From Escherichia coli (GTDB lineage Bacteria; Pseudomonadota; Gammaproteobacteria; Enterobacterales; Enterobacteriaceae): a stretch of DNA of 64,000 nucleotides. Location: NCBI RefSeq assembly GCF_024298765.1, contig NZ_CP101210.1; one strand, given 5' to 3'. Below, one piece after another: positions 19,101-25,100 of the stretch; position 1 is the first letter of the stretch; each line of letters starts with the position of its first letter. The position numbers were made by a program.

Positions 19101-22100
19101 CACACTCTTCGCAATGTTTACAACTGTCGACAATGCAGCCGACACCAACCAGATCGCCCGGCGCATATTTTTCTACCTGATCACCAACAGCTACCACGCG
19201 CCCCACAATTTCATGACCCGGCACGCAGGGGTAAACCGTCCCCGCCCACTCCGAACGGACCTGGTGGAGATCGGAATGGCAGACGCCACAGTAAGCGATT
19301 TCGATTTTGACATCATGCGGTCGCGGTTCACGCCGGGTGATATCCATCGGTTCAAGTGGTTGTTTAGCGGAATATGCACCAACAGCTTTGATCTTCATTG
19401 TGTTTACTCCTGATTAGCTATGTGTATTTGGCGATGCCTGATATGTCATCGCGGCAAAACGCGTCCATTGAATATAGCCAATATTTAAACCACCCGATCC
19501 AGCCCTAACATGCCGCGAGCCTGAATGAAACAGAGCAGCAACGTTCCCCATAAGGCCATCGTCAGGTAGGGGCTTATACCGAGAATATTGAAGCCGCTTT
19601 CAATAATTTGCAGAAGAAACAGCGCCAGCACCATACCAATTATCCGCCCGCTGCCGCCGTCCGGATTAACCCCGCCGAGTACTGCCGCGAGGATTGACAC
19701 CAGCAAGTACGATTCGCCATAAGAGGCCTTAGCCGAGTTGAGTTTCGACATCATCAAAAATGCCGCTACCGCACAAAGCAAGGCGGAAATGACATACACC
19801 CATATCAGCACCCGACGAGTGTTAATACCGGAGTAAAGTGTTGCTCGTTCGTTAGAACCAATCAGATAAATGGATTTACCGAGCGGCGTTTTCTCCAGCA
19901 ATATCCACAGCCCCAGCGCCACTGCGGTAAACAACCACATCGGTAGCGGAATACCGAACCACTGTGCATGATTCAACCACAGCACCCATGAGGGATAATT
20001 GGCAATGGCGCTACCGCCTGTCACCAGAATATTTACCCCTTTGAGCAACGTCATCATCCCGAGTGTTGCAAGAATTGGCGACACTCGAATACCAGCAATC
20101 AATACGCCGTTACATAAACCGATTATCACCGCCGCGCCAGCGCCCGCCAGCAGCGTAGCGACAACCGTAGCAATACCCGGTGGATACTGAGTCGCCACCC
20201 ACGCCATCACCAGTGAACAGGCGTTAGCAGTGGCTATAATTGACAAGTTAATGCCACCGCAAAGCATGGTCACCGCCATAGCCAACGCCAGAATGCCCAG
20301 CACGGGCATTTGCGAAGCGACGGACTGGAAATTACTTATCGACCAGAAAATCTCCGGCATAGTAATGCTGAAGGCTGCAACAGTTAGCACCAGCAGGCCG
20401 ATCAAGTAAAACTCAACGTTGTTACGCCACGATTTTTTCATAGCAGACTCCGGTTCTGATGCTGACTCCACGCCGTGGCACTAATGCTGGCAACGATGAT
20501 GATGCCGGTGATCAATGTTTGCCAGTAAGACGAGACTCCCAATAAATTTAGCCCGTTTTGCATCACTGCCAACAACACCACGCCGAGCAAAGTACCGGTT
20601 AACGTGCCGCGCCCGCCGAGCAAACTAGTGCCGCCAAGCACCACCGCAGCCAGTACTGTCAGCTCATAACCCAGAAGAGAATCGGGGGCGACAGTCATCA
20701 CCGTCCACGACTGCACTACACCCGCAGCACCAGACATCAATCCCATATAGCCGTAGACGAAAAGTTGCAGTTTCAGCACGCTAAAGCCGATGCGACTGGC
20801 TGATTCGCGGTTCCCGCCAAGGGCATAAATTTTGCGCCCTACACTGGTGAAATTCATGATAAACGCTGTTAGCAGCACCACCGTAATCATGGCGATCAGC
20901 GGCAGACCAAGGCCATAGTCATAGCCATCAGCATCGGTGTACTTGAACAACATAACCCCCTGCTCAAACCACGGCGGAAAGTCGTACAGCCACACACCTT
21001 TACTCAACCATAACAGCAGGCCATAGAAAATATTCAGCGTCGAGATAGTGATGATGATAGACGGCACCCGTAGGCGATTAACCAGTAAGGCGTTTATTAA
21101 GCCAAGTAAAATGCCGATGCCGCCCGCCAGGGCAAACGCGACAGCAAAGTTGCCACCCATTTTTTGCAGCAACAGCACCATGCCGTATTGCGCAATGATG
21201 GTCATTGCCGGAAACGAAATATCAATCCCACCGGAAATTAACACCACAAACAAACCACAGGCGAGAATAGTCAACATGGCATAGTTATTGGCGAGATCGT
21301 ACAAATTACCGAATGTCAGAAACTCGTCGCTGCGCCAGGCAAGGCCAACAAACAGCACCACAATCAGTAATGCCAGCCAGAATTCATGGCGTTTTTTCAG
21401 TTCAGCCATTTACCACCTCCGCAATCCTGGCCTGAGAACTGCTGTCAGGCAGGAAGCTATGGGTGATCTGACCTTTTTGCATTACCAAAATCCGGTGGCT
21501 TTGATACCACGCTTCTTCAATTTCATCGCAGATCATCAATACCGCAATGCCATGAGCCGCCAGATCGCTGATAATGCCGTATATTCCTGCTTTGTTGGCG
21601 ATATCAACACCGACAGTCGGGCTATCGAGAATCAACAGTCGTGGCCCAATCGCCAGCCATTTGGCGATCGATACTCGCTGCGCGTTACCCCCGGAAAGCG
21701 TATTCACCGGGAGATGTGGGTCAGAGACTTTGATGGTCAATGCCTTGATTAGCCTGTCCACCAGGTCACGCACTTTAGCTTCACTCAGAAAGCCGAAGCG
21801 ATCTTTTACCTTGTGAAAAACAGTGCTAATGATGTTGTCTTCAATAGATTGCGCCATCACCAAACCGCGCGACATGCGATCTTCCGAAACATAACCAATA
21901 CCGTGGCGGATGGCGTCCTGGTTACTATGCAGTGTAACCGGCTGACCGTTGATGAGGATCTCACCAGCATCCGGTCGGGTCATACCAAACAGACTCAGAC
22001 ATAATTCCGTGCGCCCCGCACCAAGCAGGCCAACAATCGACACCACTTCGCCCGCTTCCACCCGCAAGTTAATATTTTGATATTCCCCATGACGACTTAA

Positions 22101-25100
22101 ATTACGCACCTCCAGCACCGGGGTGCTGGATTTTCCCTGCCACAACTCTCGTACCTGATATTCGAACTCCTGGCCGGTCATCAGAAAACTGAGTTGTTTT
22201 GTGGTCATCTCTGCGGCCGGAAAGGTCCCGACCAGCTCACCATCTTTCAGCACTGAAATACGGTCGGAAACTTCCATCACTTCTTCCAGACGATGACTGA
22301 CGAAGACCACGCAGATCCCGCGTTCCCGCAATTGATGCACCACCTGTAATAACCCTTGCACTTCCTGATGGGTCAGCGAAGCGGTTGGTTCATCCATCAC
22401 GATCAACCGTGCGTCCTGCGCCAGTGCACGGCAAATTGCCACCAGCTGACAGCGGGCAATTGAAAGCTCAGAAACGAGCGTATCCAGTGGCAATGTGACG
22501 TTAATACTGGTCATTGCCGCCTGCGCCACCTCACGCAGACGACGGCGGTTAACAAACAGACCGTGGTGATAGTGATTCACGGCGATATTCTCCCAGACAC
22601 TCAGGTTAGGAAATAAAGAGAGGTCCTGATAAATCACCTGAATCCCCTGCGCCACCGAAGCGGCGGGTGTCAGCTTTGACCAGTTTTTCCCACCAAGCGT
22701 AATTTCCGCCCCCTCATCCGGGCGATAAACACCGGACATAATTTTAATCAACGTCGATTTACCACAGCCGTTTTGCCCGGCAAGGCAGTGCACCTCACCC
22801 GACATAAAGTCGAGAGAAACATCGCGCAGCGCTCGCGTGGCATGAAACGTTTTGTTGATATGACGAAGGGAAAGGAAGGTTTCCATAGCATCCCCTGGCA
22901 ATAAGAATCGGGGCTTTCGCCCCGAAGAAATGGATTAATAAAGTGAGTCGATATTGTCTTTGTTGACCAGTAATACCTTATGGAAACGGATAATTCGCTT
23001 ATCCATATCTACGTCGGCCTTACCGAGATTCTGCATTTCTAATCCAGGTTTGATCTCTTCACCCTTCAGCAACGTGCTGGCGACGGCCGCGAGTGCGTAA
23101 CCTGCAGAGGCCGGATCGTAAGTAATCCCTTCGGTGATATCACCACTTTTAATCAGTGATGCCGCCTGTGAAGGGATCATCATGCCATAGACTGCGACTT
23201 TATTTTTCGCCCGTTTCTCTTTCACTGCACGTCCCGCGCCAATCGGACCGTTTGAACCAAAGGAGACAACCGCTTTCAAGTCAGGATAGGTTTTCATCAG
23301 GTCCAGTGTGGTACGACGTGAGTCATCCACACTCTCGGCAACCGGCATGCGGCGGGTAACTTCATGCATATCCGGGTAATGCTCTTTCTGGTATTTCACC
23401 AGCAAGTCAGCCCATAAGTTATGCTGCGGCACGGTCAAACTACCCACGTAAATCACATAGCCGCCCTTGCCCCCCATGCGTTTCGCCATATGCTCAACAT
23501 ATTCAGCGGCAAATTTTTCGTTATCAATGATTTCGATATCCCAGTTAGCACTTGGCTGACCGGGAGATTCGTTGGTCAGAACCACAATTCCGGCATCTCG
23601 CGCTTTTTTGAATACCGGTTCCAGCACGTTGGCATCGTTTGGCACGATAGTAATTGCATTAACCTTACGGGCGATTAAATCCTCAATAATTTTAACCTGT
23701 TGCGGAGCATCAGTACTTGAAGGCCCCACCTGTGACGCATTAACACCAAAGGCTTTACCCGCCTCAACCACACCTTCGCCCATGCGATTAAACCACGGCA
23801 TACCATCGACTTTAGAGATATTCACCACGACTTTTTCCGCTGCCTGGAGCGGCGCAGAAATTAGCGCAGCGCCTAATAACAGCGAAGACACCATATTGAT
23901 AACAAAACGTTTATTCATCATTTCAGCCTCATTGCAGGGTAGTCAGGAAGTGTTCGCCCAAATTAGCGCGCTGGAGAGAATAAGAATTTTCGAATATTTT
24001 TATGCAGAATAAACAGCCCTATTTCAGGCAGCTATTAAAAATATGGTTATAAATATGGACAAAACGGGCAGCAACAATAAGTGTGACATTCATCACGTAA
24101 AAAATAGCAAAATAAACAAAATTAGCGATATTTTATGTGTGTGAGTTTATTTCGCGTAGATAAATAGTTATCTACACAACGTCAATAAGGGCATATTCTT
24201 CAAAGATAACGTCCATTTCTGGTGAATAGCTTCCTTCTGCCTGGAAAAAACGACGGTGTTCATTACGCCAATATTCAAGACTGAGGTCACCTTCACCTTC
24301 CTTACGGGCAAGCTCCGCGGTGACATCAGAAAAGCGCAGTAAATGCAGGCCAATCACTCTGATAACACATACAGGCTCACCACGGCTATTTTCTACAATC
24401 TTATACTCACCAATCATCGGAAATGCGTTGTCTTCAATACATCCTGCCAGCGAACCACAGGAAGCTGTTTTAACACCAGTCGCAATCAACGTTGCGAGGT
24501 GATCGGCCAACGCTGCAGAATCGCCAAAAGTACAAAAGGAAGCATGGGGATATTTTTGTAAGATTTTTTCTTTTATGGTCATGAGAATATTTTCGCGATT
24601 ACGGAAAAACAAATCACATCTTAATTACTGTTGGTAACCATCAGCAAGAGTATCATTGGTTTTTCGATACTGAATCTTTTTTATCCGAAGCAGGTCACAT
24701 TTATGGCCTGATAAATACCTTTGTTAAAACTCACTTTTGTGTATTTCTCTCAAATAATCCCCTGGAAATTATGCCGGGAGATTATAAAGTTCAGGATCAT
24801 TCATTAGCAGACCATTCCCGCCCCACTCCCTGGGGCTTAAATCTCTTACTATTCACCGTTGCAGGCGTTTCAAATGCGCATCAACCTGCCACACTCCCCC
24901 ACACCAGTTGCCCTTTATGGAACGTTGCGGTTCTCGGCGAGATACGCGCCACCGCCTCGGCGGAACAGGAGGCGTCCACCAGCACAAAGCTGGCGTCATC
25001 CTGCGCTTTGGGCCAGACACGCTCGCCTTTTTCATTCAGCGGCAATACATCGCCAGTGGCTAGAAACAGCGAACGGGAGAGGTTCTGTTCGTTAGGACGA

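What the first reader, a model, noticed from the sequence alone, without database searches (positions are those of the whole stretch)
19399..24880. Sugar ABC transporter operon plus ASCH-domain gene inserted between yahK and yahJ
In K-12, as I recall the map, yahK and yahJ are adjacent. Here about 5.5 kb lies between them, encoding a periplasmic binding protein, a double-domain ABC ATPase and two permeases in the same gene order as the galactofuranose transporter ytfQRT-yjfF, plus a 146-aa ASCH-domain protein. No regulator gene is present in the insert. The substrate is unknown, and the link to the flanking yah genes (aldehyde reductase, amidohydrolase, carbamate kinase) is unexplored. yahL appears to be absent from the other side of yahK.
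Basis: partly seen in the sequence, partly recalled or inferred. Interest (0 to 1): 0.45.

Follow-up and report, generated by a model that had tools for sequence, protein, structure and literature searches.

The report
Known Aau ribulose/arabinose transporter locus
The 5.5 kb between yahK and yahJ is an intact copy of the already published Aau sugar transporter of E. coli (it binds D-ribulose and is switched on by L-arabinose through AraC), so the finding is real but not new; K-12 lacks it because of an old deletion, not because this strain gained it.

Summary
Five same-strand genes lie between yahK and yahJ: a binding protein, a double-domain ATPase, two permeases and an ASCH-domain gene. No regulator gene is present, and yahL is missing.

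The "unknown substrate" claim is out of date. The binding protein is 327/328 identical to AauA (PDB 9I1M). The locus is O-island 17 (Z0415–Z0419), the Aau system described by Cottam et al. in 2024 and 2025. AauA binds D-ribulose with KD about 2 µM and L-arabinose with KD about 600 µM. AraC induces the operon in trans, and AraB phosphorylates the imported ribulose. The finding's own refutation criterion is therefore met.

What I add:
- **Intact copy.** The six ligand contacts are present. The ATPase lacks both the O157 Q87* stop and the IS1203 insertion of the closest genome.
- **K-12 is a deletion derivative.** Its 376-bp spacer keeps the 3′ ends of aauD and the ASCH gene. The same scar occurs in 2803 of 5426 complete genomes, including phylogroup B2. 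The long form occurs in 2205.
- **Candidate promoter.** A CRP site and a tandem AraC site lie upstream of aauA and are conserved in orthologues down to about 68% identity.
- **Partner genes elsewhere.** In other genera the operon sits next to araC/araBAD or a sugar kinase, never next to yah genes.

The ASCH gene remains uncharacterised.

The parts
18349..19398 (-). yahK (NADPH-dependent aldehyde reductase), flanking gene. It starts 86 bp downstream of the aauD stop on the same strand, and no terminator is predicted between them.
   Evidence: ORF. Identity to K-12 and O157 yahK. Terminator scan.
19485..20441 (-). aauD, second permease (318 aa; Z0419 equivalent). Its last 72 bp (19485-19556) survive in K-12 as a remnant.
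   Evidence: BPD_transp_2. 99% identical to the O157 copy. K-12 homology runs to 19556. PGAP pseudogene fragment.
20438..21409 (-). aauC, first permease (323 aa; Z0418 equivalent). It overlaps aauD by 4 bp and aauB by 8 bp.
21402..22886 (-). aauB, fused double-domain ABC ATPase (494 aa; Z0416/7 equivalent). It is intact here: Q87 is present rather than the O157 stop, and there is no IS insertion. The second domain has LILDSPT, with Ser in place of the catalytic Glu.
   Evidence: Two ABC_tran domains. Comparison with O157 (Q87*). IS1203-disrupted copy in the closest genome. Walker B conservation.
22908..22925 (-). GC-rich hairpin between aauA and aauB. It is a possible partial terminator or mRNA stabiliser that would favour excess binding protein.
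   Evidence: Terminator-like site. The role is inferred.
22935..23921 (-). aauA, periplasmic D-ribulose/L-arabinose binding protein (328 aa, Sec signal peptide; Z0415 equivalent).
   Evidence: 327/328 identical to PDB 9I1M. Contacts K37, W43, E118, H167, E196 and S223 are present. They are invariant in 80 orthologues.
24033..24070 (-). Candidate tandem AraC site. The I1-like half-site TGCCCGTTTTGTCCATA is at 24070-24054. The I2-like half-site TAACCATATTTTTAATA is at 24049-24033, in 21-bp register. It is followed by a weak -35-like TAGCTG (24034-24029) and a -10-like TATTCT (24011-24006).
   Evidence: the only such site in the 64-kb window, and 13 of 5000 shuffles reach its score. Conserved across orthologues. 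AraC dependence of the promoter fragment is published (PMC11127945). The site itself is my prediction.
24082..24097 (-). CRP-like palindrome CGTGATGAATGTCACA just upstream of the AraC site, the same order as at the araBAD promoter.
   Evidence: The TCACA arm is invariant in alignment A1. The same palindrome lies about 26 bp upstream of I1 in the Escherichia, Klebsiella, Franconibacter and Mangrovibacter copies.
24172..24582 (-). ASCH-domain gene (136 aa; probably Z0414), function untested. Its octapeptide is G36-V-K38-T39-A-S-C-G43. Its last 50 bp survive in K-12.
   Evidence: Pfam ASCH, E = 3.6e-22. PDB relatives 1T62 and 3S9X are uncharacterised. K-12 remnant. RefSeq annotation.
19557..24067 (.). 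Segment missing in the K-12-type allele (deletion 1, about 4.5 kb). It covers most of aauD, aauC, aauB, aauA, the core promoter and the AraC sites. The junction shows GCC microhomology.
   Evidence: The same junctions are present in the B2 strain ABU 83972.
24222..24819 (.). Segment missing in the K-12-type allele (deletion 2, 598 bp, replaced by 22 bp of unrelated sequence). It covers most of the ASCH gene and its upstream region.
24881..26263 (-). yahJ (amidohydrolase family, with a twin-arginine signal motif SRREFL), flanking gene.
18126..18127 (.). Junction where yahL (835 bp in K-12) is absent.
   Evidence: The same junction is present in 1070 of 5426 genomes.

Best explanation
The interval holds an intact allele of aauABCD, the published "accessory L-arabinose uptake" ABC importer of E. 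coli (O-island 17, Z0415-Z0419), plus an unrelated small ASCH-domain gene.

**Mechanism, shown experimentally by others for the near-identical EHEC allele:**
- Periplasmic AauA captures alpha-D-ribulose with micromolar affinity, and L-arabinose about 200-fold more weakly.
- AauC and AauD form the channel, and AauB powers transport.
- Transcription needs L-arabinose and the core-genome activator AraC.
- Imported D-ribulose is phosphorylated by AraB and enters the pentose-phosphate pathway.

**Inferred here:**
- AraC acts directly at a tandem I1/I2-type site at 24070-24033, helped by CRP at 24097-24082.
- This promoter travelled with the operon. The same sites are conserved in orthologues from other Enterobacterales and from Pasteurellaceae. 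There the operon often sits beside araC and araBAD, or beside a ribulokinase-like kinase.
- The position next to yahK predates E. coli diversification.
- The K-12-type state arose from this long form by one old compound deletion.

The yah genes are incidental neighbours.
For: - **Identity.** AauA is 327/328 identical to PDB 9I1M, and all six ribulose contacts are present.
- **Same locus as in O157:H7.** Gene order and position match O157:H7, with 98-99% nucleotide identity.
- **Published function.** Binding constants, AraC dependence, the AraB requirement and the mouse fitness effect are in PMC11127945 and PMC12307932.
- **Intactness.** There is no Q87* stop and no IS insertion.
- **AraC/CRP site.** It is the only site of its score in 64 kb. 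13 of 5000 shuffles reach it. It forms the invariant blocks in a 13-species alignment. It is found in nearly all orthologues of at least 68% identity and not in the 58-61% Rbl-like group.
- **ara linkage.** tblastn finds araC, araB, araA or araD next to the operon in seven Enterobacterales loci and in about 20 loci of Pasteurellaceae and two Vibrio species. Curated AraC, AraG and AraH models score above their cut-offs.
- **Deletion polarity.** K-12 keeps aauD and ASCH 3' fragments. The aauD fragment also matches aauD of Klebsiella, Franconibacter and Mangrovibacter. PGAP calls it a truncated pseudogene. The identical 376-bp scar is found in phylogroups A and B2.
- **Age.** A divergent Escherichia genome (L031; yahK 89% and aau genes 91-93% nucleotide identity) has aauABCD beside yahK.
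Against: - No experiment was done on this strain. Function is transferred from a 98-99% identical allele.
- The AraC and CRP sites are predictions. In E. coli the half-sites are degenerate (8/10 and 7/10 matches to the consensus), and AraC dependence could in principle be indirect.
- The representative genomes of E. albertii and E. fergusonii did not appear among the AauA hits, so the time of arrival in Escherichia is not fixed.
- Recombination could have moved either allele between lineages.
- The published papers describe the locus as horizontally acquired. That is not contradicted for the deep past.
Confidence: 0.9

Rival explanations
1. One reading: an uncharacterised sugar transporter of unknown substrate, newly inserted into an ancestral yahK-yahJ junction of the K-12 type.
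For: K-12 lacks the genes. The NCBIfam equivalog models for the binding protein all score below their cut-offs, so family scans alone give no substrate.
Against: The binding protein is the crystallised AauA, with published ligand, regulator and phenotype. The K-12 spacer contains coding remnants of aauD and the ASCH gene.
Confidence: 0.03
2. The operon is an autoinducer-2 (Lsr-type) importer, as the RefSeq product name of the binding protein suggests.
For: PGAP names the protein "autoinducer 2 ABC transporter substrate-binding protein". LsrB structures are distant PDB hits (E about 1e-24 to 1e-20).
Against: - The LsrB equivalog model scores 111 bits against a cut-off of 384. The LsrA, LsrC and LsrD models also fall below their cut-offs.
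- The gene order differs from lsrACDB, and no lsrK or lsrR is present.
- The crystal structure holds D-ribulose.
Confidence: 0.02
3. The locus is a recently acquired pathogenicity-island cargo specific to EHEC-like strains, and the short K-12 form is the ancestral empty site.
For: The papers call it horizontally acquired and island-encoded, with carriage correlated with the LEE. Outside Escherichia the operon has other neighbours, so it entered this site by transfer at some point.
Against: - There is no integrase, no supported tRNA gene and no flanking repeats.
- GC content is 0.48-0.52, like the flanking genes.
- Diversity among long alleles is about 2%, like the flanking core genes.
- The operon is present beside yahK in a genome about 10% divergent.
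- The short allele carries remnants.
- The long form is in 41% of complete genomes.
Confidence: 0.08
4. The physiological cargo of the Aau clade is an L-arabinose-pathway sugar (L-arabinose in a minor ring form, or L-ribulose) rather than D-ribulose. D-ribulose binding would then be a side activity of a conserved ketopentose or furanose pocket.
For: - AraC sites are conserved family-wide.
- The operon is embedded in araC-araBAD clusters or followed by AraB.
- The operon is induced only by L-arabinose.
- I found no report of AauA being tested with L-ribulose.
Against: - The measured KD is 2 uM for D-ribulose and about 600 uM for L-arabinose, and the structure holds alpha-D-ribulose.
- D-ribulose gives an aau-dependent growth gain.
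- The six contacts are identical in the Rbl-like group, which the paper shows to be D-ribulose specific.
Confidence: 0.2

Closest known systems
AauABCD (Z0415-Z0419, O-island 17) of enterohaemorrhagic E. coli; AauA structure PDB 9I1M (Cottam et al., Nat Commun 2024 and 2025)
   Same: - It is the same locus at the same chromosomal position, with the same gene order.
- AauA is 327/328 identical and all six ligand contacts are present.
- The other subunits are 99% identical to the O157 copies.
- There is no local regulator.
   Different: - This allele has an intact ATPase. EDL933-lineage O157 carries Q87*, and the closest genome carries IS1203.
- AauA has D200 where 9I1M has V200.
- yahL is missing on the other side of yahK in this strain.
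RblABCD-RblK-RblI D-ribulose locus of Citrobacter rodentium
   Same: - It is a homologous four-gene transporter. The paper reports about 60% identity between Rbl and Aau. The 58-61% group in my loci, which I take to be Rbl-like from that identity level and from the kinase that follows the operon (C. rodentium itself is not among the loci), has the same order and the same six contact residues.
- D-ribulose is the cargo.
   Different: Rbl-type loci carry their own FGGY D-ribulokinase directly downstream and lack AraC half-sites. They respond to D-ribulose, not to L-arabinose.
araBAD promoter architecture (CRP site, then araI1-araI2, then the core promoter)
   Same: - The order and spacing are the same: a CRP palindrome, then two direct-repeat AraC half-sites in 21-bp register, then a weak -35.
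- Orthologues carry near-canonical TAGC-N7-TCCATA half-sites.
   Different: - No upstream O2-type looping site was identified.
- The E. coli half-sites are more degenerate than araI1.
- Binding is predicted, not shown.
YtfQRT-YjfF galactofuranose/arabinofuranose transporter
   Same: - Same CUT2-type architecture and the same gene order (binding protein, ATPase, two permeases).
- It is also up-regulated by L-arabinose in EHEC.
   Different: The YtfR, YtfT and YjfF models score far below their cut-offs, and there is no YtfQ match for the binding protein. It is a different subfamily with a different ligand.
YqfB-type ASCH amidohydrolases (N4-acetylcytidine deacetylases), for the ASCH gene
   Same: ASCH fold (Pfam, E = 3.6e-22). 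The Lys and Thr of the ASCH octapeptide are retained (K38, T39).
   Different: - The octapeptide ends in Gly, not Arg.
- The closest solved relatives (1T62, 3S9X) are uncharacterised.
- There is no NCBIfam match, and the activity is untested.

Membership tests
Aau (AauABCD) D-ribulose/L-arabinose ABC importer of E. coli | Binding protein matches the characterised AauA sequence | tested here: met
   327/328 identical to PDB 9I1M over the full length.
Aau (AauABCD) D-ribulose/L-arabinose ABC importer of E. coli | Ribulose-contact residues K37, W43, E118, H167, E196, S223 | tested here: met
   All six are present and invariant in 80 orthologues. The residue list comes from PMC12307932.
Aau (AauABCD) D-ribulose/L-arabinose ABC importer of E. 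coli | Four-gene operon (binding protein, ATPase, two permeases) at the O-island 17 position, without its own regulator | tested here: met
   Same order and same flanks (yahK, ASCH gene, yahJ) as O157:H7.
Aau (AauABCD) D-ribulose/L-arabinose ABC importer of E. coli | Intact (functional-type) ATPase gene | tested here: met
   One 494-aa reading frame with Q87. The O157 ATCC 43888 copy has Q87*, and the closest genome has IS1203.
Aau (AauABCD) D-ribulose/L-arabinose ABC importer of E. coli | L-arabinose- and AraC-dependent transcription | not testable with these tools
   Published for the EHEC allele. Here there is only a predicted and conserved tandem AraC site plus a CRP site.
Aau (AauABCD) D-ribulose/L-arabinose ABC importer of E. 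coli | D-ribulose uptake and AraB-dependent use | not testable with these tools
   Requires growth or uptake assays. Published for EHEC.
CUT2-type sugar ABC importers | Peripla_BP_4 binding protein, fused double ATPase of about 500 aa, BPD_transp_2 permeases | tested here: met
   Pfam matches are above the gathering scores for all four proteins.
LsrACDB autoinducer-2 importer (the RefSeq product name) | Proteins reach the curated LsrB, LsrA, LsrC and LsrD equivalog scores | tested here: not met
   LsrB 111 against 384. LsrA 388 against 586. LsrC 115 against 388. LsrD 146 against 500.
LsrACDB autoinducer-2 importer (the RefSeq product name) | lsrACDB gene order with lsrK and lsrR nearby | tested here: not met
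   The binding-protein gene comes first, and there is no kinase or repressor in the interval.
YtfQRT-YjfF galactofuranose importer | Proteins reach the curated YtfR, YtfT and YjfF scores, and the binding protein resembles YtfQ | tested here: not met
   YtfR 416 against 850. YtfT 97 against 535. YjfF 123 against 363. No YtfQ model is among the binding-protein hits. Only the gene order is shared.
RhaSTPQ rhamnose importer | Binding protein reaches the RhaS equivalog score | tested here: not met
   137 bits against a cut-off of 342.
Mobile genomic island | Integrase or transposase, tRNA or direct-repeat boundaries, deviant base composition | tested here: not met
   - No such genes.
- No flanking repeats.
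- The only tRNA call lies 1.6 kb outside the interval and is unsupported by Rfam.
- The transporter genes have GC 0.48-0.52, like the flanks.
YqfB-type ASCH amidohydrolase (for the ASCH gene) | ASCH octapeptide G-x-K-T/E-x-x-x-R with catalytic Lys and Thr/Glu | tested here: inconclusive
   G36-V-K38-T39-A-S-C-G43: Lys and Thr are kept and Arg is replaced by Gly (sequence). The motif definition comes from the 2026 preprint. This subfamily was not assayed there.

The most novel reading that the evidence does not exclude
The Aau-type operon may not be an EHEC acquisition that "hijacks" AraC. Instead it may be an old member of the AraC regulon that carries its own promoter. That promoter has a CRP site plus tandem AraC sites. 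The operon is shared by Enterobacterales and Pasteurellaceae and is usually coupled to a ribulokinase. E. coli would then have inherited it beside yahK. About half of today's sequenced strains (K-12, B2) would have lost it through one ancient compound deletion. The invariant binding pocket across the AraC-linked and D-ribulokinase-linked clades would make ketopentose import followed by direct phosphorylation the ancestral role of the whole family.
Probability: 0.6. Interest if true: 0.35.

Novelty: already known. Interest (0 to 1): 0.15.

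Why it matters
The locus matters biologically. The published work shows that Aau gives EHEC a 10- to 100-fold competitive advantage in the mouse gut. That is already established, so this finding adds no new system.

The modest added value is evolutionary and regulatory:
- **The short form is a loss.** The K-12/B2 state is a deletion and still carries remnants. This changes how presence/absence maps of "O-island 17" should be read: strains retained the locus rather than gained it.
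- **A testable AraC/CRP site.** It gives a direct mechanism for the published AraC dependence.
- **Family-level support for ribulose.** The link to ara genes and to kinases in other genera supports ribulose-type cargo for the whole family. It also suggests that Pasteurellaceae orthologues are worth assaying.
- **An annotation error.** The RefSeq product name "autoinducer 2 ABC transporter substrate-binding protein" is misleading for this protein.

Tried and rejected
- **Rfam scan of 17400-25000.** No RNA family reached threshold.
- **PADLOC scan of the ASCH protein.** No defence-system match.
- **Literature search for PDB 3D02.** Nothing found.
- **Filler sequences of the K-12 scar.** A short-word BLAST of the 63-bp and 22-bp fillers against the whole window gave only chance-level matches. 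The 63-bp filler aligned only as a diverged copy of the aauA upstream region once the L031 allele was included. The 22-bp filler remains unexplained.
- **Flanking repeats.** No direct repeats flank the interval. One 25-nt, 76% complementary inverted pair (19532-19556 and 24910-24934) is probably chance.
- **ARAGORN tRNA-Ser at 17717-17797.** Rejected as a probable false positive because the Rfam tRNA model does not match.
- **RNA-seq supplement.** A search for yahK, yahJ and Z0420 found no entries. The stored file may be cut, so read-through into yahK stays open.
- **Consensus promoter scan.** It did not list the proposed aauA promoter because its -35 is too weak. That is expected for an activator-dependent promoter, but it is not evidence for one.
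- **LsrB, RhaS and YtfQ memberships.** Considered and rejected on curated score cut-offs.

Full report
**1. The observation**

| Gene | Window coordinates | Notes |
|---|---|---|
| yahK | 18349-19398 | flanking gene |
| aauD | 19485-20441 | permease |
| aauC | 20438-21409 | permease |
| aauB | 21402-22886 | ATPase of about 495 aa with two ABC domains |
| aauA | 22935-23921 | periplasmic binding protein |
| ASCH gene | 24172-24582 | 136 aa in RefSeq; 146 aa from an upstream TTG |
| yahJ | 24881-26263 | flanking gene |

- Pfam confirms the domains.
- No regulator ORF lies in the interval.
- In K-12 MG1655, yahJ and yahK are 376 bp apart.
- yahL is absent here. The 835 bp at K-12 344170-345004 are missing between window 18126 and 18127.

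**2. What it is**

The binding protein is 327/328 identical to PDB chain 9I1M_A and about 93% identical to the structural-genomics entry 3D02. 9I1M is AauA, the binding protein of the Aau transporter of enterohaemorrhagic E. coli. It was published by Cottam et al. (Nat Commun 2025, PMC12307932).

The earlier paper (Nat Commun 2024, PMC11127945) defined the locus as Z0415-Z0419 on O-island 17. It reported the following:
- The locus is induced only by L-arabinose.
- Induction is abolished in an araC mutant and restored by araC in trans.
- The locus has no regulator of its own.
- Deleting it costs EHEC 10- to 100-fold in competitive gut colonisation.
- The locus is common in phylogroups B1 and E and rare in A and B2.

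The 2025 paper measured KD = 1.98 uM for D-ribulose and 598 uM for L-arabinose. It solved the structure with alpha-D-ribulose bound by K37, W43, E118, H167, E196 and S223. It also showed that AraB phosphorylates the imported D-ribulose.

That criterion is met, so the finding is already known.

**3. State of this copy**

- All six contact residues are present. The only difference from 9I1M is D200 where 9I1M has V200.
- The ATPase gene is intact. O157:H7 ATCC 43888 has Q87*, at nucleotide 259, which matches the paper's "position 259".
- The 100%-identical closest genome has IS1203 inside the ATPase gene.
- By sequence, therefore, this strain carries a functional-type allele.

**4. Insertion or deletion**

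The K-12 spacer is not an empty site. Its 376 bp break down as follows.

| K-12 spacer positions | What they match |
|---|---|
| First 158 bp | Window 19399-19556 at 98%, including the stop codon and last 23 codons of aauD |
| 222-293 | Window 24150-24221, including the last 50 bp of the ASCH gene |
| 159-221 | A diverged copy of the region upstream of aauA. It runs through one arm of the CRP palindrome and then jumps into the aauD 3' end at a GCC microhomology |

- The aauD-derived stretch of K-12 also matches aauD of Klebsiella, Franconibacter and Mangrovibacter at 80-86%. It is therefore coding-derived sequence.
- PGAP independently annotates it as a pseudogene fragment "missing N-terminus" in BL21 and ABU 83972.
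- The K-12-type allele thus arose from the long form by two deletions. The first removed about 4.5 kb (window 19557 to about 24067). The second removed 598 bp (window 24222-24819).
- The B2 strain ABU 83972 has the same 376-bp scar, gap-free against K-12, with about 5% substitutions. This points to one old event.
- Among 5426 complete genomes, 2205 carry the long form and 2803 carry the scar.
- L031 is a genome labelled E. coli but about 10% divergent in nucleotides (yahK 89%, aau genes 91-93%). It has aauABCD beside yahK. The position therefore predates E. coli diversification.
- There are no island hallmarks: no integrase, no supported tRNA, no flanking repeats, and GC content like the flanks.
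- Outside Escherichia the operon has other neighbours. An ancient transfer into this site is still implied.

**5. Regulation: a prediction that goes beyond the papers**

Neither paper maps an AraC site.

| Element | Sequence | Window coordinates |
|---|---|---|
| CRP-like palindrome | CGTGATGAATGTCACA | 24097-24082 |
| AraC I1-like half-site | TGCCCGTTTTGTCCATA | 24070-24054 |
| AraC I2-like half-site | TAACCATATTTTTAATA | 24049-24033 |

- The two half-sites are direct repeats in 21-bp register. A weak -35 and a -10-like TATTCT follow them.
- The order matches the araBAD promoter read from K-12.
- The tandem site is the only one of its score in the 64-kb window. 13 of 5000 dinucleotide shuffles of the 250-bp region reach it.
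- In a 13-sequence alignment of upstream regions, the invariant blocks are the TCACA arm, TT.TCCATAT and the following TAGC. The other genera carry near-canonical TAGC-N7-TCCATA.
- Across all 80 fetched loci the tandem site is present in nearly all orthologues of at least 68% identity, including Pasteurellaceae. It is absent from the 58-61% group.
- AraC control therefore looks like a property the operon brought with it, not an EHEC-specific rewiring. This is inference. Binding has not been shown.

**6. Genomic partners in other genera**

- The four-gene operon is conserved in Klebsiella pneumoniae (92% for the binding protein), Franconibacter, Mangrovibacter, Symbiopectobacterium, Aeromonas, Yersinia, Providencia, Atlantibacter, Leclercia, many Pasteurellaceae and some Vibrio.
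- yah genes are never its neighbours outside Escherichia.
- In Providencia, Limnobaculum, Budvicia and Leminorella it lies in an araC-araBAD cluster. In Limnobaculum the cluster also includes bona fide AraG and AraH.
- In Pasteurellaceae a bona fide AraC gene lies directly upstream.
- Three unrelated kinase types directly follow the permease genes in different lineages:
  - AraB in Chelonobacter and Testudinibacter;
  - a 531-aa XylB-like FGGY kinase in Mannheimia, Actinobacillus, Histophilus and Rodentibacter;
  - an RblK-type FGGY kinase in the 58-61% group. I take that group to be Rbl-like because of this kinase and because its identity level matches the roughly 60% the paper reports between Rbl and Aau.
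- The six contact residues are invariant in all 80 orthologues.
- Together this supports a ketopentose cargo handed straight to a kinase as the family-wide role. It also shows that the flanking yah genes are incidental.

**7. The ASCH gene**

- It is a separate gene upstream of the aauA promoter, and most of it is deleted in K-12.
- Its only solved relatives (1T62, 3S9X) are uncharacterised.
- It has no NCBIfam or PADLOC match.
- It keeps the Lys and Thr of the ASCH octapeptide but has Gly where YqfB-type enzymes have Arg.
- Z0414, probably this gene, is listed as 3.7-fold up with L-arabinose in the EHEC RNA-seq supplement, against 26- to 43-fold for Z0415 and Z0417.
- My best guess is a small N-acyl amidohydrolase of the YqfB kind. 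Confidence is low, and nothing links it functionally to Aau.

**8. Verdict**

The feature is real and correctly described, but it is the published Aau system. Novelty: already known. Interest is low. My additions are incremental and partly predictive: the deletion polarity, the conserved AraC/CRP site, and the ara and kinase linkage in other genera.

Noticed in passing
window 18126/18127 (yahN-yahK spacer 17467-18348): yahL (835 bp in K-12) is cleanly absent, with no microhomology at the junction. The same junction occurs in 1070 of 5426 complete E. coli genomes. The flanks are only 90-94% identical to yahL-carrying alleles, which suggests two old haplotypes.
   Followed up: partly
window 21402-22886, AauB residues 418-424: The second nucleotide-binding domain has LILDSPT, with Ser in place of the catalytic Glu after Walker B. 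Ser or Ala is found in nearly all 78 orthologues and Glu in only 2. This implies a conserved degenerate ATP site.
   Followed up: partly
window 17717-17797 (-): ARAGORN calls a tRNA-Ser(GGA) inside the yahM/xtpA region. The Rfam gathering scan of the same stretch finds no tRNA, so it is probably a false positive.
   Followed up: partly
window 27270-27447: There is a tandem REP/BIME-like repeat block between yahI and yahG. Its copy number differs from K-12 339756-340115. The block translates as the spurious yahH-type ORF.
   Followed up: no
window 26263 downwards (YahJ N-terminus): YahJ begins MKENNSRREFLSQSG..., a twin-arginine signal motif. That would place this cytosine-deaminase-like amidohydrolase in the periplasm.
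   Followed up: no
L031:9200-10000: In a divergent Escherichia genome, the 5' part of the ASCH gene and yahJ-yahF are replaced by an EAL-domain gene region, while aauABCD-yahK and the AraC/CRP sites are retained.
   Followed up: partly
L051:14350-15945 and equivalents in L042, L049, L057, L061, L047: Pasteurellaceae carry araC, then the Aau-type operon, then a 531-aa FGGY kinase. That kinase is neither AraB nor RblK-type: its XylB model score is only 103 bits against a cut-off of 380. Its sugar specificity is unknown.
   Followed up: partly
window 19399-19484: Only 86 bp separate aauD and yahK, and no terminator is predicted there. L-arabinose-induced transcription could therefore read through into yahK in long-form strains. 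Neither yahK nor Z0420 was found in the held RNA-seq supplement.
   Followed up: partly
RefSeq annotation of window 22935-23921 equivalents (L002, L003): PGAP names AauA "autoinducer 2 ABC transporter substrate-binding protein", although the LsrB model scores 111 bits against a cut-off of 384. This is a misleading product name spread over thousands of genomes.
   Followed up: yes
L004 (SFEK01000152.1): A 4.7-kb contig binned as a Bacteroidales metagenome-assembled genome is 99-100% E. coli aauABCD. It is most likely a binning contaminant.
   Followed up: no
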